Virus record (IMG/VR): IMGVR_UViG_3300037424_000434
Location: 171,766 to 235,765 of that record
DNA length: 64,000 nt
Reading direction: 5' to 3' (one strand)
DNA from: a virus
Taxonomy: Duplodnaviria > Caudoviricetes
The notes under the pieces are model-generated. The model was not told where the DNA came from. It did no database searches and was given only the letters and a program-made list of their open reading frames with translations. Below are positions 8,325 to 58,604 of the stretch, piece after piece (the stretch's first letter is position 1; every line of letters starts with the position of its first letter). Both the position numbers and the translations under genes were made by a program.

Positions 8325-8678
8325 ATGATACAAGCAGATATGATAATAGAATGTGATGTGTGTGGAAGCACAGAAGGTGTTCAGTGTGAGATTATGATGA
8401 AAGGGTCCAGAGTTGATCGAGTATATCATCTTTGCCCCGAACACTGGGTTGAGGTGTATAGAGAATGTATTGAAAGTTTTCTGGACCACAACCCATATAA
8501 AGTGAACTCTTTTATAAAAAATGCCGCCGACAGCTTAATTATCAAACAAAGACATTTGGATAAATTGGGAGACATTACAACGGATGACGGTGTTGTTGAT
8601 CTGAATATATTTGCTCCACGTACAGTTAGAATTTTGCGTACATTTGACGTAGATGCGGGGGATGAAACGAATGAGTAA
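8325..8678 (+). CDS. Hypothetical protein (CxxC/CxxH)
   Basis: 117 aa ORF in operon. Confidence 0.6.
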   Translation: MIQADMIIECDVCGSTEGVQCEIMMKGSRVDRVYHLCPEHWVEVYRECIESFLDHNPYKVNSFIKNAADSLIIKQRHLDKLGDITTDDGVVDLNIFAPRTVRILRTFDVDAGDETNE

Positions 8679-8895
8679 AATACAGGTTGATAAAATTGAA
8701 CTGAAAAACTTTTTTTCCTATGGAAATGCGTGGCAGACCATTGATCTACATGAAGGGGTAAACATTGTTTTGGGGCATGATGTTGACAAGGAACGGTCCA
8801 ACGGCGCGGGGAAGTGTGTTAGGGGTAACACCGAAGTCTGTATTGAATTCGATGACCCTGAAACCGAAAGATTGTTCTTAGAGTCTATTGAATAA
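8671..8895 (+). CDS. gp46: gp46 (Rad50/SbcC ATPase) N-fragment fused to split-intein N part (Cys at 8815)
   Basis: IELKNFFSYGN...GHDVDKERSNGAGK is Walker A up to Lys, then CVRGNTEV (intein block A-like) and a stop after 26 aa. Confidence 0.9.
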   Translation: MSKIQVDKIELKNFFSYGNAWQTIDLHEGVNIVLGHDVDKERSNGAGKCVRGNTEVCIEFDDPETERLFLESIE

Positions 8896-8932
8896 TTATA
8901 ATTATTTTGTTTACCTGAACCATTGTAGTCTG

Positions 8933-8940
8933 TATAAATA
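8933..8940 (+). promoter_or_regulatory. T4-type late promoter in front of the endonuclease gene
   Basis: TATAAATA inside a CCATTGTA/TACAATGG hairpin. Confidence 0.75.
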
Positions 8941-8951
8941 CTTGTAATACA

Positions 8952-10028
8952 ATGGAAGAGGTAAGTATTATGACAAAACGATTAAGTCCGTTTTCACAGG
9001 AATTTTGGATTCAGAAGGGTATGTCACCGGAGGAAGCCGACTATAAGAGAAACAGTTTCAGACCAATACGAAAAGAGTATTGGTTGGAAAAGGGTTATTC
9101 TTACGAAGATGCTGAGAAAAAGGCTATTCAAACGAAAATTGATAATAACAAAAAAGGGGCACTATCTTCTTCACAAAGAGATTCGGTGGAATTGAGAAAA
9201 TCCAGTCCAAGGTGTGTTGAGTATTGGATGGAAAGGGGCTACTCTCACGAAGATGCTAAGACCGAGGTTTCTAATCAACAGTCAACCTTCTCATTAGACA
9301 AATGTGTAGAGAAGCATGGCGAAGAAGACGGTAAAATTATATGGCAAAAAAGACAGGATAAATGGCAAGATACTCTCAATACAAAGTCGGATAAAGAACT
9401 TGAAAGTATAAACGAAAGAAAGGGTAATTGCGTAAACTTTGCATATCTAATGAATAAGTTTGATGGCGATAAAGATAAGGTCAGATTATTTGTGGAAAGT
9501 AGAGGAATAAAATTATTTAATACAGTAGATGAACTAAAAGATTATGTGAAAGAATGTATTAATGACAATCCTGAGAGAAGATATCTATCACGGGATAGGT
9601 TCTGTATAAAACATAATATATCAAGACTTCAATGTGATTATTTGGGCATAAAACCCAAAGATGTGTTGAAAGGTGTGTTGAAGAAAGGGTCATATAAAGT
9701 TAGAGGGAAATATAACCAGACACATATGAGAACAGAAGACGGTTTGTTGAGAAGTTTACAGGAGATGTATTTCTATGATATACTGAAAGAAAATGATATA
9801 AAGTTTGAGATGGATGAGAACTACCCCAATTCATCTTTTAGATATGACTTTTATCTGATAGACTTTGATGTATATATTGAGATATGCCCGTTATATGGAC
9901 AGGTCGGACAGGAATTATACACAGAAAGGATGGATAAAAAGCAAGAACTGTTCAGTTTCGTGAAATTATCCAAATCCAAGGAATTTGAGGTTTATATAAG
10001 GAGGTTATTAGATGAAAACAACTGTTAA
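8952..10028 (+). mobile_element. Free-standing putative homing endonuclease between split-intein halves
   Basis: N-terminal EFW/EYW..KG(M/Y)S.E.A repeats and C-terminal RSLQE...FRYDFYL..FDVYIEI (PD-(D/E)XK or Vsr-like). Probable start ATG 8970. Confidence 0.7.
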
Positions 10029-53454: not shown

Positions 53455-54952
53455 GTGAAAGACAAAATTATGACAATAATAACCGAGTATGCAGAAAGAA
53501 CAGCGTTTGCGGATGATCAAGCAAAAGACGATTACATTAACATGGTAGAAAAATGGTGTAACATCATTTCAGACGCTGCTGGTAAAGTATCAGTGGGGGT
53601 GGTGTATACCGATAAATACAATGGCGGTGCCGACAACGAACCACTGAGATACGCTTATAATGGTGACTCGGGTTTCGATCTTAGGGCAGAAACAAATGAT
53701 GCCGGGGGATATGAGATTGCTCCAAAAGGGACAGTTGTTATCCCGGTTGGCATCAAAGTGGCGGTCCCGAAAGGCACCGAGCTTCAGGTTAGAACACGCT
53801 CAGGATCTCCCGTCAAAAAGGGATTTTTTGTAGCAAACTCTCCGGGAACGGTAAACTAAAATCCCAAAAAATCAATCGTTCCTATTTATTTTTATAAATA
53901 CTTGTAGAATGAATGGGGGGATTGATATGATAGCAAAATGTTTAATATGTAATAAAGAATTGGATGTATGGCCTAGTAGGGCAAAGAAATTCAAAACCTG
54001 TAGCATGAAATGTCTTGCCGAGTATTTTAAAGACGATAATAATACTATATGTAAGACTTGTGGTAAAGAATTTCATTTAAAACCTTATAGGAAAAAAAGA
54101 TCACAGGATAATTTTTGTTCTGTGGGGTGTTTTGCCAGTTGGAAAAGTGAAAGCCAACGAGGATGCAATAACCCCAATTTTAGAAACAGACTATATGGTG
54201 GAGATGGTATGAAGATTTTACATATACCGTCAATAGGTAGTGTTAAAGAACACCGATTTGTTGCTGAATCAATATTAGGTGAGATACCAAAAGGACTTAA
54301 TGTTCATCATAGAGACTGCAATCCTATAAACAATGTTCCCGAAAATCTAGTAGTGCTGTGTCCTAAAGACCATAGGTGGATACATAAACAATTCGGAAAT
54401 GCTACATTATACGCATATTATTACAACAAGATAGATAAAGAATCATTGATATCTTGGTCTAACGATAAAGATAGAGCAGAAAGATTGTTAGACTTGAACA
54501 TTTTGAATCAAAAACTGCCGTTATAAAATTGGGTGAATTCAGGGGAAGTCCAGAAGTGGATAATCCTGAGCCAAGCCCCACGAATTAACAGATTAGTAGT
54601 GGGGAAGGTGCAACGCATAGAAGGTGAGGATGTTATACCAATAACCCTTCCACGAGCGCCCGACAATAGAAATATTGAAGATGTATGCTGGACATGCACA
54701 TATAACTTGACAATGAAAGTGCAGAACTATGGGATAAAAAGCCCGTAGGATAACAAACGAGATAGTGGGTATAGGGGAGTTGTTGGTGTTATTTGTCATA
54801 ATCTATCAGACGAACTTGTCACCATAGAGTGTGGCGAAAGAATTGCCCAAGGTGTTATTTGTCCGGTGTATCAAGCTGTTTTTACACAGGTAGAAGATCT
54901 TGGTGTTACAGAAAGGGGCGATGGTGCCTATAATTCCACGGGAGTACAATGA
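53455..54952 (+). CDS. dut: dUTPase interrupted by a group I intron (exon 1 53455-53852, exon 2 54760-54952)
   Basis: DSGFDL, RTRSG, NSPGT(V) joined to DSGYRG...GERIAQGVI...RGDGAYNSTG. The join GT|A restores motif III. Confidence 0.92.
53853..54759 (+). mobile_element. Group I intron
   Basis: Exon ends in U and intron ends in G. P1 AACGGU/GCCGUU (54517-54522) has U.G at the junction. P3 TTGGGTG/CGCCCGA, P/Q GAATTCAGGGGAA and AATCCTGAGCCAAGC, P7 GCATA/TATGC. Confidence 0.9.
53927..54526 (+). CDS. Intron-encoded HNH homing endonuclease
   Basis: CxxC repeats, EHRFVAE, VHHRDCNPINNVPENL; late promoter TATAAATA at 53893. Confidence 0.88.
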   Translation: MIAKCLICNKELDVWPSRAKKFKTCSMKCLAEYFKDDNNTICKTCGKEFHLKPYRKKRSQDNFCSVGCFASWKSESQRGCNNPNFRNRLYGGDGMKILHIPSIGSVKEHRFVAESILGEIPKGLNVHHRDCNPINNVPENLVVLCPKDHRWIHKQFGNATLYAYYYNKIDKESLISWSNDKDRAERLLDLNILNQKLPL

Positions 54953-55317
54953 TGATTAGACCAGACGGTAAAAAAATTCAGGAAGTCAAAGACCATTTCA
55001 ATCTTCTTTGTGAACAAGAAATCATCCACATGACGGCCAAAGTCAGAGAAGTGGAAGAAGATCCAGAAAGAGAGCTGAAGGAAGACGAGATTAATAGTGT
55101 TCGACATAAACACCAATCTCTAGAAAAAAGACATCTAGACACTATTCTAGCTCTTGGGCCAGAGAAACTTTACAAATCCGGCTTTGGGTTCAACACTGTT
55201 GGGGGTGAAGGTTGGAGAGCGGGGTACACTAAACCACTACTAAGTAAAAGGACGGCAAAACGCCGTACACTCAAAAAACTCGCAAAAAAAGTTCGTCAGC
55301 AGCAGAGAAAAAAATAA
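54949..55317 (+). CDS. Hypothetical protein
   Basis: 122 aa, basic C-terminus. Confidence 0.55.
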   Translation: MMIRPDGKKIQEVKDHFNLLCEQEIIHMTAKVREVEEDPERELKEDEINSVRHKHQSLEKRHLDTILALGPEKLYKSGFGFNTVGGEGWRAGYTKPLLSKRTAKRRTLKKLAKKVRQQQRKK

Positions 55318-55348
55318 AATAAAATTAAATACAATTAAATAAAATGAA

Positions 55349-55380
55349 GTGCCACCCTCTCTGGGGGGGTGGTATTTTTA
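55349..55380 (+). terminator. Terminator-like hairpin before RNR
   Basis: GCCACCC...GGGTGGT-ATTTTT. Confidence 0.6.
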
Positions 55381-55391
55381 TCGGAGAAAGT

Positions 55392-58300
55392 ATGATAAAG
55401 AATAAGGGCAAAAAGTTGCTATCTGATCTAAAATTCTATAATGATTATTCAAAATGGAACTATGAGTTGGGGAGATATGAAACATGGGAAGAAGCATGTG
55501 AATCAGTATTTGATACACATTTGATTAAATATAAAGAGTTTCTGTTAGAGTTGCGGCCTTATTTGGATAAAGCTCTTGTGTTATATAAGAACAAATCAAT
55601 CCTTGCCTCGCAGAGGAATTTGCAATATCGAGGGCAGCAAGTATTATCCAAGAACGAACGAATTTACAATTGCGCCACAACGTATATGGACAGTGTAGAT
55701 AAGATTCATAAAGCATTTTTTCTGTCTCTCTGTGGGTGTGGTGTTGGTGTATCACTGCTTAAACGTTGGGTGAGAAAACTCCCCAATATCATCAAGCGTG
55801 ATGACAACAAGGTAAAGCATGTGGTGGTGGAAGATAGTATTGAGGGATGGGCTGATGCTGCTGGGGTTTTGATCAGTTCTTTTTGTGACGGAGAAGTTCC
55901 TTTTCCTGAATATAGAGGGTGTATTATCCATTTTGATTATTCTGCTATCCGGCCCAAAGGTGCAATGATTTCAGGTGGATATAAAGCACCCGGACCAGAT
56001 GGTCTGAAGCAGTCCCTCGAAAGAATCGAATCGTTATTGAGCGACGAATCCTTGATCGGTAAACAAATGAAGTCTATCACAGCATATGATGCGATGATGC
56101 ACTTGGCTGATGCTACACTGTCCGGTGGGGTTAGACGTGCAGCTTTTTCGGTGATAATCGATCCAACCGACGAAGATATGATCGCCGCAAGGACGGGCAA
56201 CTGGAGAGAAACTAATAAACAACGTGAGCGGTCAAACAATTCCATTGGGTTAAAGCGGAATGATTTTTCATATGATACCCTTGAATCATTAGTCAAACTT
56301 AATAATGGGATGTCTGATCTTGGTTTCTGTTTTTTGACATCGGATTATGAAGTATTAAACCCCTGTTTTGAGATTGATATGGCACCTATCTGGGATATTG
56401 AACAGGAAATTACTGGAATAGAGTTTTGCGTGGCTGGGGACACAAAACTTATAACAAAACATGGTATAGTAGAAATCGCAAAAGCAGTTGGTGTCGAACT
56501 TGAAATTTGGAATGGGAAAGAATGGTCTAAAGTTAAACCCTTTAAAACAGGAGATGCCAATAGACTTCATCGTGTTCAGTTGAGCGATGGTTCATATCTT
56601 GACGCAACTGATAACCACAAGTTTTTGGTAAAAGATAGGTTCAACAAGGATTTTTTTGAAGTAGAGACGTTGGAATTAAAGGAGCTACTTAATAATTCAA
56701 AATATGCAATTCAAGTTCCAAGATCAAATATGGTGTATAAGGGGTTTGGTAAAAAAGAAGTTCAAGCATATAATTATGGGTTCATTTTGGGTGATGGTAA
56801 TATACCCAAAAATTCAAAAAAAGTTTATGCTGGGTTATTTTCTGAAGACAAAAAGATTGAATTTAAATCCCATACTGTGATAGGGGAATATTTTAACTAT
56901 AATGGGACTCCGTATACAAAAATTTCATTTGATGATGTGGATTTTGATTTTTGTAAAAGATTGAAATATGAAGATGGTTTGCCCGAAGAGATTTTTGGTT
57001 GGGATGAAAATAGTATATTAGATTTTGTATCTGGATGGGCTGATGCAGATGGAAGCCAAGCATCAAAAGGTATTAGAATTTATGGGAATGAGAGTAAGTT
57101 GAGGGATTGTCAACTGCTTTTAACAAAAGTAGGTATTAATTGTTCTCTTAATCTAATGAGCAAAAAGGGTGTTGTGACTAATTTGGGAGAAAGAAAAAAT
57201 GATGTTTGGTATGTACAGATAACAAATACTTGTAAACTAAAAACACAGAGACTGGCTACAGAAAACTGTGATGATTCCAAATATAAAGGAAAATATCAGA
57301 TTGTCAAATCAGTAACAGAACTTGGTGGTTTATATGAAAGTTTTTGTTTAACCGAAGATAGGTTACATCAATGTGTGTTTAACAATGTTCTAACAAAACA
57401 ATGCAATCTCACTGAAATTAATGCCAAATCATGTATTACTAGAAACAGGCTTGATAAACAAAAATTTTATGATTGTTGTGAAGCCGCCGCAATTATTGGG
57501 ACAATTCAAGCTGGTTATACGAGTTTCCCTTATCTGGGCGAGATTACAGAAAAAATCGTTGAACGTGAATCATTGATTGGTGTGTCAATCACCGCATGGA
57601 TGGACAACCCAGAGTTGTTTGATGCTGACGTATTGGCAGAAGGCGCGAGAATCGTTAAAGAAACCAATAGGAAGATAGCAGCAATTATTGGGATCAATCC
57701 CGCAGCAAGATGTACGACAACAAAACCAAGCGGAAATGCCTCTGTGCTCCTTGGGTGTGCTTCTGGTATCCATGCAGAACATTCCAAGAGATATTTTAGA
57801 ATAATGCAGGTGAATAAGGAAAGTGAGATTGGCAAGTGGATGGCGAAGAGTGTATTGTCTGATATGTATGAGGATTCTGTTTGGAGTTCAATGGACACTG
57901 ATTATGTGATTTATGTTCCAATCGAAAACGATGACATTAGTGTGTTCAAAGACGATATTAAGGGGATTGACCATCTTGAGAAAATCAAGTTTGCACAAGA
58001 GCATTGGATTAACAATGGAAAAAATGTTGAACTATGCACGGTGCCAGAGCTATCCAATAACATCTCATGCACTGTAATTGTGGATGATTACGATAAAGTT
58101 AGTAGATATTTATATGACAATCAAAATGAGTTCACCGCAGTTAGCTTTTTGAGCGATACTGGGGATAAAGATTATCCACAATCTCCCTTTACGTCGGTGT
58201 TGGATTCACAAGAATTGTTGGACAAATATGGTAGTGGTGTAATTTTTGCTTCCGGGCTGATCGTTGATGGTTTGCAATATTTCGGGGATGATTTGTGGGA

Positions 58301-58604
58301 AGCATGTGAGTGTATTTCCGACAAGACCAGAAAATTGTCAGGCACAAGAAAAGATATCTTGTTACAGTCTGATTGGTTGAGAAGGGCCAAACAGTTTGCA
58401 AAAAACAATTTTAAAGGGGACACTCAAACCCTGATATATTGCCTAAAAGATGTTCATTTGTGGCACAAGTGGTGCAAGATAGTTAGGGGATTACGAGACA
58501 TTAATTTTGAAGAGATTTTGATTGAACCTAAGTTTAATGATGTATCTAATTATACAGCACAGGCTTGTTCTGGTAATTCATGTGAGATAAAAACTATTGG
58601 ATAA
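55392..58604 (+). CDS. nrdJ: Class II (B12-dependent, RTPR-like) ribonucleotide reductase containing an intein
   Basis: YNC, IRPKGA, SGGVRR, SNNS, NPCFEI, CNLTEIN, TTKPSGNAS, C-terminal CSGNSC. No NrdB-like gene is visible nearby. Confidence 0.8.
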   Translation: MIKNKGKKLLSDLKFYNDYSKWNYELGRYETWEEACESVFDTHLIKYKEFLLELRPYLDKALVLYKNKSILASQRNLQYRGQQVLSKNERIYNCATTYMDSVDKIHKAFFLSLCGCGVGVSLLKRWVRKLPNIIKRDDNKVKHVVVEDSIEGWADAAGVLISSFCDGEVPFPEYRGCIIHFDYSAIRPKGAMISGGYKAPGPDGLKQSLERIESLLSDESLIGKQMKSITAYDAMMHLADATLSGGVRRAAFSVIIDPTDEDMIAARTGNWRETNKQRERSNNSIGLKRNDFSYDTLESLVKLNNGMSDLGFCFLTSDYEVLNPCFEIDMAPIWDIEQEITGIEFCVAGDTKLITKHGIVEIAKAVGVELEIWNGKEWSKVKPFKTGDANRLHRVQLSDGSYLDATDNHKFLVKDRFNKDFFEVETLELKELLNNSKYAIQVPRSNMVYKGFGKKEVQAYNYGFILGDGNIPKNSKKVYAGLFSEDKKIEFKSHTVIGEYFNYNGTPYTKISFDDVDFDFCKRLKYEDGLPEEIFGWDENSILDFVSGWADADGSQASKGIRIYGNESKLRDCQLLLTKVGINCSLNLMSKKGVVTNLGERKNDVWYVQITNTCKLKTQRLATENCDDSKYKGKYQIVKSVTELGGLYESFCLTEDRLHQCVFNNVLTKQCNLTEINAKSCITRNRLDKQKFYDCCEAAAIIGTIQAGYTSFPYLGEITEKIVERESLIGVSITAWMDNPELFDADVLAEGARIVKETNRKIAAIIGINPAARCTTTKPSGNASVLLGCASGIHAEHSKRYFRIMQVNKESEIGKWMAKSVLSDMYEDSVWSSMDTDYVIYVPIENDDISVFKDDIKGIDHLEKIKFAQEHWINNGKNVELCTVPELSNNISCTVIVDDYDKVSRYLYDNQNEFTAVSFLSDTGDKDYPQSPFTSVLDSQELLDKYGSGVIFASGLIVDGLQYFGDDLWEACECISDKTRKLSGTRKDILLQSDWLRRAKQFAKNNFKGDTQTLIYCLKDVHLWHKWCKIVRGLRDINFEEILIEPKFNDVSNYTAQACSGNSCEIKTIG
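56427..57401 (+). mobile_element. 325-aa intein with LAGLIDADG endonuclease, ending KQ
   Basis: GIEF|CVAGDT...ATDNHKF...YGFILGDG...SGWADADG...FNNVLTKQ|CNL. Confidence 0.92.

What the first reader, a model, noticed from the sequence alone, without database searches (positions are those of the whole stretch)
53853..54759. Group I intron in dUTPase with a covariant P7 and the HNH gene in the P1 loop
Seen: splicing U53852 to A54760 rebuilds the catalytic motif NSPGTVDSGYRG. P7 is GCAUA/UAUGC instead of the near-universal GACUA/UAGUC, and the G-C guanosine-binding pair is kept. The internal guide GCCGUU lies in the last codons of the HNH ORF about 660 nt from the splice site. A competing complement (ATCGTTCC, 53875-82) lies close to the exon. 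Known: phage group I introns mostly target td, nrd, pol and terminase genes. I do not recall dUTPase as a common host. Inference: splicing may be coupled to translation of the HNH ORF.
Basis: partly seen in the sequence, partly recalled or inferred. Interest (0 to 1): 0.7.

Follow-up and report, generated by a model that had tools for sequence, protein, structure and literature searches.

The report
Mobile intron splitting phage dUTPase gene
The only dUTPase gene of this uncultured 236-kb T4-like phage is cut inside its active-site motif by a genuine self-splicing-type (group I) intron that carries its own HNH homing-endonuclease gene; the layout is unusual but already described elsewhere, so it is a new member of a known kind.

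Summary
Rfam calls a group I intron at 54449-54691 (58.2 bits, cut-off 50). Joining U53852 to A54760 gives NSPGTVD|SGYRG, identical without gaps to ten uninterrupted homologues. The guide GCCGUU (54517-54522) lies in the last codons of the HNH gene, 665 nt from the splice site and six nt before P3. That is where related introns carry their guide, and there it covaries with the exon. P7 is GCAUA/UAUGC with the G-C pair kept.

The interpretation needs one correction. The "competing complement" (53875-82) is the 5' arm of a conserved hairpin (53871-53926) that buries the ribosome-binding site of the HNH gene. A T4-type late promoter box, TATAAATA, sits at its tip. This is the known I-TevI/mobE type of control, which keeps ribosomes off the intron core while the pre-mRNA splices.

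None of the headline features is new:
- A dUTPase split by an HNH-encoding intron is annotated in crAssphage. This scan found one before on other DNA (e1-3720939).
- Endonuclease genes in the P1 loop were described for recA introns.
- P7 varies within this intron family.

The modest novelty is an insertion site 7 nt upstream of the crAss-type site. No RNA data exist, so splicing is inferred.

The parts
53455..53852 (+). dUTPase exon 1. Start is GTG 53455 with AGGAG 6 nt upstream, or ATG 53470 as called in the database. The exon ends in U53852, inside the Val codon of motif III (NSPGTV).
   Evidence: Pfam PF00692 positions 7-61; alignment to uninterrupted homologues.
53853..54759 (+). Group I intron, 907 nt, first base A53853, terminal G54759. 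The exon-1 reading frame stops at UAA 53857-53859.
   Evidence: Rfam RF00028 58.2 bits; junction; same intron in L003-L006.
53871..53926 (+). Conserved hairpin. The 3' arm 53906-53926 includes the Shine-Dalgarno run GGGGGG (53915-20) and ends one base before ATG 53927.
   Evidence: MFE -21.1 kcal/mol. RNAalifold consensus over 4 sequences: 24 pairs, 2 with changes on both sides and about 10 with compatible one-sided changes.
53893..53900 (+). TATAAATA, a T4-type late-promoter box at the tip of the hairpin. The predicted late start near 53906 would leave out the 5' arm.
   Evidence: Invariant in all 5 intron copies. 31 copies on the + strand of the genome, 18 with an ORF start within 80 nt. The same TATAAATACTT precedes the endonuclease gene in L001.
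53927..54526 (+). HNH homing-endonuclease gene (199 aa): two Cys-rich repeats followed by an HNH_3 domain. Its last codons contain the internal guide.
   Evidence: Pfam PF13392 E 2.8e-10. Orthologues of 199 aa in L003-L005. dN/dS 0.15-0.20.
54517..54522 (+). Internal guide sequence GCCGUU (3' strand of P1), pairing with AACGGU 53847-53852. It is followed by the joiner AUAAAA (54523-28).
   Evidence: Same position relative to P3 as the guides of L001, PPWS1, VL73, L066, cr1_1, L018 and L050, each complementary to its own exon.
54529..54748 (+). Ribozyme core. P3 54529-35/54657-63. P4 54539-44/54564-69. P5 54549-52/54557-60. P6 54570-71/54608-09. P6a 54576-81/54599-604. P7 54615-19/54684-88. P7.1 54620-24/54646-50, with an inner stem 54632-36/54641-45. 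P8 54665-68/54673-76. P9 54695-99/54719-23. P9.1 54727-33/54742-48.
   Evidence: 19 pairs of the 11-helix table, in which the inner P7.1 stem was mis-registered, carry compensatory changes, mostly against L066. Family-wide P7 covariation.
54760..54952 (+). dUTPase exon 2: completes the Val codon, then DSGYRG ... RGDGAYNSTGVQ, stop TGA 54950-52.
   Evidence: Pfam PF00692 positions 69-129, E 4e-9; alignment.

Best explanation
This is a mobile group I intron of the phage IA-like type. It has an extra hairpin between P7 and P3' and no P2. It is inserted in motif III of the phage's only dUTPase gene.

On the early or middle pre-mRNA the 5' exon end AACGGU pairs with the guide GCCGUU 665 nt downstream to form P1. 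The intervening P1 loop holds the HNH gene. The core P3-P9.1 folds, guanosine attacks after U53852, and the exons are joined at U53852/A54760 to give an intact 196-aa dUTPase.

The HNH gene is kept silent on that RNA because its Shine-Dalgarno sequence is buried in the hairpin 53871-53926. This matters because the gene's last codons are the guide and its stop lies 2 nt before P3, so a translating ribosome would prevent P1 and P3 from forming.

Late in infection, transcription from the TATAAATA box at the hairpin tip would start inside the hairpin. That RNA lacks the 5' arm and the 5' exon, so it can be translated but not spliced. It yields the endonuclease, which cuts intron-less dUTPase alleles in co-infecting phages and drives homing.

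Shown here: the intron family match, the junction, the position and covariation of the guide, the core pairings, the hairpin and its conservation, and purifying selection on the HNH gene. Inferred: self-splicing activity, the promoter's use and timing, translational repression, and endonuclease activity and target.
For: - Rfam RF00028 at 58.2 bits against a cut-off of 50.
- The spliced product matches ten uninterrupted homologues exactly across the junction.
- The two exon pieces are the only dUTPase matches in the 236-kb genome.
- The same intron at the same site occurs in L003, L004, L005 and L006.
- The guide hexamer sits 6 nt before P3, as in the diverged dUTPase intron L066 (GGAGUC, exon GACUCU, plus a 6-bp P10) and in crAss-like phage cr1_1 (GGAGUC). 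The guide sits just upstream of P3 in L018/L031 (GUCACG, exon CGUGAU), in L050 (GCGCACC, exon GGUGCGU), and in the short-P1 relatives L001, PPWS1 and VL73.
- 19 pairs of the 11-helix table carry compensatory changes. Each of the four P7 variants in the family is found with its exact complement downstream.
- The hairpin is -21.1 kcal/mol. The hairpin is kept in 4 sequences despite different arm sequences in L005.
- TATAAATA behaves as a gene-proximal box across the genome.
- HNH dN/dS is 0.15-0.20. Synonymous difference falls from about 0.6 to 0.27-0.40 in the last 33 codons, which fits an overlapping RNA constraint.
- Precedent: I-TevI, I-TevII, I-TevIII and mobE have hairpin-sequestered ribosome-binding sites with late promoters placed so that late RNAs lack the inhibitory arm. 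Loss of the I-TevI hairpin impairs td splicing (PMC2988022).
Against: - There is no RNA evidence. No RNA run holds this DNA.
- P1 is short: 6 pairs, 7 with A53853-U54516. P10 is only 2 pairs (AG/CU).
- The 665-nt P1 loop must be closed without any obvious helper helix.
- The Rfam score is only 8 bits above the cut-off. L003, L066, L045 and cr1_1 fall below it.
- Hairpin covariation rests on four sequences, effectively three lineages.
- The late promoter is inferred from a consensus box only.
Confidence: 0.85

Rival explanations
1. The nearby complement AUCGUUCC (53875-82) is a working alternative P1. It traps the 5' splice site and forms a three-way switch with the Shine-Dalgarno sequence. When the hairpin is opened and the HNH gene is translated, the freed arm pairs with the exon and blocks splicing.
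For: There are 8 contiguous pairs with the exon, and the duplex is more stable than P1 (-12.9 against -9.3 kcal/mol). The 11-nt block TCAATCGTTCC is invariant in 5 copies although its flanks vary and synonymous sites in the ORF are near saturation. It is transcribed before the 3' arm of the hairpin, so it could form transiently.
Against: Its conservation is already explained by the hairpin, which uses the same bases. It is absent from the MFE fold. Four of the eight bases (UUCC) are simply anti-Shine-Dalgarno and match the GGAA of the Gly-Thr codons. Relatives with the same P1-loop layout (L031, L050, L066) have no such complement, and L018 has only 5 pairs. Late transcripts lack both partners.
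Confidence: 0.12
2. The nearby complement is the true guide (P1 is the local hairpin 53845-53882). The ORF would then lie in a P2-like insertion, and GCCGUU would be fortuitous.
For: This is normal P1 geometry, a hairpin with a 22-nt loop, with 8 pairs and full conservation. L069 appears to have U-A at its splice site within an 11-bp P1, so U-A may be tolerated in this family.
Against: It gives U-A instead of the U.G wobble at the cleavage site. GCCGUU lies at the exact position of the guide in relatives, and that position covaries with the exon in L066 and cr1_1; guides immediately upstream of P3 in L018 and L050 likewise match their own exons. The strand is sequestered in the hairpin.
Confidence: 0.05
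3. The block upstream of the late promoter is a DNA operator that mimics the homing site. The HNH protein would bind it and repress its own promoter, as shown for I-TevI.
For: In reverse orientation GGAACGATTGAT matches the intron-less junction GGAACGGTAGAT at 10 of 12 positions, reaching into exon 2. In L066, 16 of 20 bases just upstream of the ORF match the end of exon 1 in forward orientation (18 of 2000 shuffles do as well). Precedent in PMC2988022.
Against: The window's match is not significant (205 of 2000 shuffles do as well). Orientation differs between the window and L066. Several tests were run without correction. The idea does not exclude the hairpin explanation.
Confidence: 0.1
4. 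The intron is a decayed, non-splicing remnant and the dUTPase is a pseudogene.
For: There is no RNA evidence, the Rfam score is modest, and P10 is weak.
Against: All core helices are intact and compensated. The exons are uninterrupted and 50-68% identical to active-type dUTPases with all motifs. The intron-bearing gene is kept in at least four diverged phages. It is the only dUTPase in the genome. The HNH gene is under purifying selection.
Confidence: 0.04

Closest known systems
crAssphage / crAss-like phage dUTPase intron with intron-encoded HNH endonuclease (NC_024711 annotation; cr1_1 NC_055873, genes gp027-gp025; PMC7551546)
   Same: The host gene and the motif are the same. The order is the same: exon 1, HNH gene, ribozyme core, exon 2. 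The HNH protein has the same build (two Cys-rich repeats plus HNH). [quoted passage not shown]
   Different: The insertion site is 7 nt further downstream (VDS|GY against TV|DSGY here), so the guide differs. P7 is the usual GACUA/UAGUC. The ORF runs deep into the core. The host is a crAss-like podophage of gut Bacteroidota, not a T4-like sediment phage, and no TATAAATA hairpin was seen.
L066 (IMGVR_UViG_3300009480_000001), an uncultured AT-rich phage dUTPase intron
   Same: It shares the rare P7 GCAUA/UAUGC and the P7.1 hairpin sequence GAGGAU..UACCAAUAA. The HNH gene is in the P1 loop. All helices are superimposable, with compensatory changes.
   Different: The site is that of crAssphage (GTIDS|NYQG). 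It has a 6-bp P10. The HNH gene is in two frames, so it is probably decaying or holds a sequencing error, and it reads into the core.
T4 td, nrdD and nrdB introns (I-TevI, I-TevII, I-TevIII) and Aeh1 mobE
   Same: These are group I introns of T4-type phages in nucleotide-metabolism genes. The endonuclease gene has a late promoter and a hairpin that sequesters its ribosome-binding site on longer transcripts. The ORF 3' end contributes to the ribozyme structure (PMC2988022).
   Different: From my own knowledge, the T4 intron ORFs sit in downstream loops (P6 or P9 region), not in the P1 loop, and those introns have P2. I-TevI and I-TevII are GIY-YIG enzymes.
recA group I introns of Bacillus cereus and phage 0305phi8-36 with Vsr-like ORFs in the P1 loop (Dassa et al. 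2009, PMC2677866)
   Same: The endonuclease gene is inserted in the loop of P1 of a bacterial or phage group I intron. TATAAATA-bearing hairpins upstream of endonuclease genes are described in the same paper.
   Different: The host gene (recA), the endonuclease family (Vsr-like) and the intron lineage all differ.
T7-like phage introns (Pectobacterium phage PPWS1 DNA polymerase, Erwinia phage VL73 primase/helicase)
   Same: The P3-P6 core is 86% identical over about 55 nt. There is no P2, and the guide-UAAAA-P3-AAYU-CAGGGG arrangement is the same.
   Different: P1 is a short local hairpin, and the HNH gene sits in the P6 loop.

Membership tests
Group I intron (Rfam RF00028) | Covariance-model score at or above the curated cut-off | tested here: met
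   58.2 bits against 50, E 3.5e-12. The orthologue in L005 scores 59.1. L003 falls just below.
Group I intron (Rfam RF00028) | The 5' exon ends in U, paired as U.G with an internal guide (P1). The intron ends in G. | tested here: met
   U53852.G54517 within AACGGU/GCCGUU. G54759 is the last intron base. The guide position covaries with the exon in relatives.
Group I intron (Rfam RF00028) | Conserved core P3-P8 with the P3/P7 pseudoknot and a G-C guanosine-binding pair in P7 | tested here: met
   All helices were placed. 19 pairs of the 11-helix table are compensated. Each of the four P7 variants in the family is found with its exact complement, and the first pair is G-C in every variant.
Group I intron (Rfam RF00028) | Guanosine-dependent self-splicing that gives ligated exons | not testable with these tools
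   No RNA run holds the sequence. The DNA contigs show only the intron-bearing form.
Subgroup IA (phage-type) | Extra pairing(s) P7.1/P7.2 between P7 and the 3' strand of P3 | tested here: inconclusive
   One extended hairpin (54620-54650) lies there and covaries with L066. Rfam has no subgroup models, so no formal assignment was possible. P2 is absent.
HNH homing endonuclease (Pfam HNH_3) | HNH_3 domain above the cut-off with the His/Asn motif intact | tested here: met
   40.1 bits against 24.8. The motif VHHRD..N..NL..LC..DH..IH is intact. dN/dS 0.15-0.20.
HNH homing endonuclease (Pfam HNH_3) | Cleaves the intron-less allele and promotes homing | not testable with these tools
   Indirect only. 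The same intron sits at the same site in phages whose dUTPases are only about 60% identical.
T4-type hairpin/late-promoter control of homing-endonuclease genes | A stable hairpin includes the Shine-Dalgarno sequence, and a late promoter lies inside it so that late RNA lacks the 5' arm | tested here: met
   The structure and box positions are met. The promoter's use and the repression itself were not testable.
Trimeric dUTPase (Pfam PF00692) | Motifs I-V contiguous in the mature protein | tested here: met
   Met only after the predicted splice. The alignment to homologues is gap-free across motif III, and motifs IV (RIAQ) and V (RGDGAYNSTG) are present.

The most novel reading that the evidence does not exclude
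The anti-Shine-Dalgarno arm has two jobs. It pairs either with the ribosome-binding site (HNH gene off, splice site free) or with the 5' splice site (8 pairs, stronger than P1). Each pre-mRNA would then be committed either to splicing or to endonuclease translation. Together with the 7-nt displacement of the insertion site relative to its closest relatives (L066 and crAss-type), this would make the element a re-targeted intron that has recruited its regulatory hairpin as a splice-site switch.
Probability: 0.1. Interest if true: 0.6.

Novelty: new member of a known kind. Interest (0 to 1): 0.3.

Why it matters
For annotation, the phage's single dUTPase is intact only after RNA splicing, so gene callers report a 129-aa stub with no domain. 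The protein database holds several such stubs ending in ...NSPGTVN.

For intron biology, it adds a clean, comparatively well-supported example of a phage group I intron with a 665-nt P1 loop that holds a regulated endonuclease gene. It also shows that one catalytic motif of dUTPase is hit by related introns at two sites 7 nt apart, and by inteins a few bases further on.

It raises no new principle. Each component has a published precedent.

Tried and rejected
- RNA evidence: no RNA holder is listed for the stretch. Laying the contigs of three sediment DNA runs gave only the intron-bearing form and no joint, so there is no intron-less allele and no independent junction.
- blastn against GenBank phages found only short core matches, to PPWS1 and VL73.
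- Literature searches for a dUTPase intron in cultured phages gave nothing until the crAssphage lead from an earlier scan note.
- tblastn of a full-length homologue found 1908 phage records, with only 14 extra places. The 60 best are uninterrupted. Split dUTPases among the rest were not listed.
- A candidate stem GGUCUAAC/GUUAGACU inside the ORF 3' end was rejected, because L003 breaks it without compensation.
- Operator-like similarity to the homing site is not significant in the window.
- My base-pair-probability read-out was mis-indexed for the hairpin, so I rely on the MFE and centroid structures instead. My first helix table mis-placed the inner P7.1 stem, because GUUAU also occurs at 54520-24. 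I corrected it by hand to 54632-36/54641-45.

Full report
**What is there**

The window is the last 64 kb of a 235,765-bp IMG/VR virus record rated 98% complete. Earlier notes of this scan call it a T4-like sediment phage. Rfam's group I intron model matches 54449-54691 on the + strand at 58.2 bits, against a cut-off of 50.

Upstream, an ORF with the first half of the dUTPase domain ends ...NSPGTVN-stop. Downstream, an open frame carries the second half. Between them lies an HNH_3 ORF. Joining U53852 to A54760 gives a 196-aa protein. Its ...ANSPGTVD|SGYRGVVGVICHN... aligns without a gap to ten uninterrupted homologues of 50-68% identity. The exon ends in U and the intron in G, as group I chemistry requires. 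The two pieces are the only dUTPase matches in the genome.

**Independent copies**

Three database proteins that stop at ...NSPGTVN led to four more contigs: L003 and L004 from Logan, L005 from JGI, and the partial L006 from ENA. They carry the same 903-914-nt intron at the same site, in phages whose dUTPases are only about 60% identical.

Among them the ribozyme core is nearly invariant. The HNH gene has diverged to about 76% protein identity, with synonymous sites close to saturation and dN/dS of 0.15-0.20. So both the ribozyme and the endonuclease are under selection.

**Where is P1?**

Comparison supports this.

Related introns lacking P2 have guide, then a 5-6 nt A-rich joiner, then a 7-bp P3, then AAUU, then P4 CAGGGG. 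This holds for:
- the second intron of this genome, L001 (AUGGGU|U... with GCUCAU UUAAA);
- the PPWS1 polymerase intron;
- the VL73 primase/helicase intron.

The window reads GCCGUU AUAAAA UUGGGUG AAUU CAGGGG.

A pattern scan of IMG/VR found 62 loci of this intron family. One of them, L066, is a diverged dUTPase intron with the HNH gene again upstream of the core. The hexamer at the aligned position is GGAGUC, a perfect match with U.G to its own exon end GACUCU. The six bases before it (AUAGUU) pair with the first six bases of exon 2 as P10.

The crAss-like phage cr1_1 has GGAGUC UUAAAA P3 and the same exon. In L018/L031 (helicase, LAGLIDADG ORF; CGUGAU/GUCACG) and L050 (HNH ORF; GGUGCGU/GCGCACC) the ORF-distal guide again lies just upstream of P3 and matches its own exon. 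The guide thus changes with the exon while its place next to P3 is kept.

The HNH gene therefore lies in the P1 loop.

**The core**

I placed P3, P4, P5, P6/6a, P7, P7.1, P8, P9 and P9.1 (coordinates are under parts). In the four-sequence alignment, 19 pairs of the 11-helix table show changes on both sides that keep the pair, mostly window against L066. One of those helices, the inner P7.1 stem, was mis-registered in the script and was corrected by hand; none of the 19 lies in it.

P7 is GCAUA/UAUGC. Across the family P7 is GACUA (51 loci), GAUCA (4), GACCA (4) or GCAUA (5, all dUTPase introns: the window, its duplicate locus L002, L005 and its duplicate L022, and L066). For all but eight GACUA loci the exact reverse complement lies about 58-125 nt downstream, and the first G-C pair is the same in every variant.

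**The 'competing complement'**

ATCGTTCC (53875-82) is indeed complementary to the exon end (8 pairs). It lies in an 11-nt block, TCAATCGTTCC, that is invariant in all five copies although its flanks differ. But folding 53830-53960 does not give that helix.

Instead, 53871-53892 pairs with 53906-53926. This forms a hairpin of -21 kcal/mol that buries GGGGGG (53915-20) and ends one base before the conserved start ATG 53927. RNAalifold recovers the same hairpin from four sequences. L005 has quite different arm sequences that still pair, with two pairs changed on both sides and about ten compatible one-sided changes.

At the tip sits TATAAATA (53893-900), the T4 late-promoter box. The genome has 31 copies on its main coding strand, and 18 have an ORF start within 80 nt. 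The identical TATAAATACTT precedes the endonuclease gene of the split helicase locus L001. A late start about 6 nt after the box (near 53906) would produce RNA lacking the 5' arm. That RNA folds at only -1.3 kcal/mol around the start codon.

This is the arrangement described for I-TevI, I-TevII, I-TevIII, segB and mobE. For I-TevI, loss of the hairpin lets ribosomes into the intron and reduces td splicing (PMC2988022).

Here the case for such protection is strong. The guide is inside the ORF and the stop codon is 2 nt from P3. Synonymous difference falls from about 0.6 to 0.27-0.40 in the last 33 codons, which fits an overlapping RNA constraint.

The exon complementarity of the arm may be partly accidental, since UUCC is anti-Shine-Dalgarno and the exon has GGAA. 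It may also have a minor kinetic role. Relatives with the same layout lack it, so I give a functional alternative P1 about 0.12.

**Comparison with what is known**

I checked that lead in two ways:
- The RefSeq record of crAss-like phage cr1_1 annotates dUTPase / 'putative intron-encoded HNH endonuclease [crAssphage_NC_024711]' / dUTPase.
- PMC7551546 describes the crAssphage dUTPase as split by an intron-encoded HNH endonuclease.

So dUTPase is a known host gene for this kind of intron. Endonuclease ORFs in the P1 loop of bacterial and phage group I introns were reported for recA introns, and TATAAATA hairpins upstream of endonuclease genes appear in the same paper (PMC2677866).

What differs here is the insertion site. 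It lies after the second base of the Val codon (TV|DSGY), 7 nt upstream of the site used in crAss-like phages and L066 (DS|GY or DS|NY). Yet L066 is the closest relative by core features: it shares GCAUA P7 and the P7.1 sequence. This suggests re-targeting of one intron lineage within the motif, but I did not build a tree.

Three homologues (P0035, P0050, P0056) carry an intein after TVD, so the motif is a hot spot for three kinds of insertion.

**Limits**

No RNA data exist for this phage. The DNA contigs show no intron-less allele. Self-splicing, promoter use, translational repression and endonuclease activity are inferences from structure, conservation and precedent.

**Verdict**

The element is a new member of a known kind, with modest interest.

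Noticed in passing
proteins P0035, P0050, P0056 (homologues found): These dUTPase homologues carry an intein directly after ...NSPGTVD (the next residue is Cys: CITK...). That is 4 nt downstream of this intron's site and 3 nt upstream of the crAss-type intron site. One catalytic motif is therefore hit by two intron sites and one intein site.
   Followed up: partly
L066:8582-9501 and L071 (NC_055873) locus 1950-2866: Related dUTPase introns sit 7 nt downstream of the window's site (DS|NY and DS|GY), with guide GGAGUC. L066 shares the rare GCAUA P7 with the window. Its HNH gene is in two frames (8653-8913 and about 8892-9356) around an A-run and reads into the ribozyme core.
   Followed up: partly
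L069 (minus strand; oriented 1040-1790): A family member with an HNH ORF in the P1 loop, apparently in the 5' end of a capsid-like gene. P1 is an 11-bp continuous helix (UUGCGU|AGUUU / AAACUACGCAA), with U-A rather than U.G at the inferred splice site. Rfam scores it 66.9 bits.
   Followed up: partly
L018, L031, L045, L050: Further IMG/VR phage introns of the same core family have the endonuclease gene (LAGLIDADG, GIY-YIG or HNH) between the 5' splice site and the guide. The P1-loop layout recurs with three endonuclease families. In this family the commoner place for the ORF is the P6 loop.
   Followed up: partly
L001 = G000:C1:21148-24411 (outside the window): A helicase gene is fractured by a split intein, with a 371-aa endonuclease gene between the halves. 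That gene is preceded by the same TATAAATACTT. An ORF-less group I intron (Rfam 93 bits) starts three codons after the intein C-half. Earlier notes of this scan already treat this locus.
   Followed up: no
window 55344-58604: The ribonucleotide reductase ORF of 1086 aa contains an intein-like insert (CVAGDTKLIT...).
   Followed up: no
L005:1115-1153: The L005 copy has a 10-nt longer loop after the 5' splice site. The segment CGTGTGAAGTC matches exon 2 (CGTGGTGAAGTC) at 11 of 12 positions; 36 of 2000 shuffles do as well, uncorrected. This may be a trace of recombination or an operator-like copy.
   Followed up: no
window 54949-54952: The dUTPase stop TGA overlaps the start of the next ORF (ATGATGA; 122-aa ORF 54949-55317 with no Pfam match). 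The arrangement suggests translational coupling that would depend on splicing.
   Followed up: no
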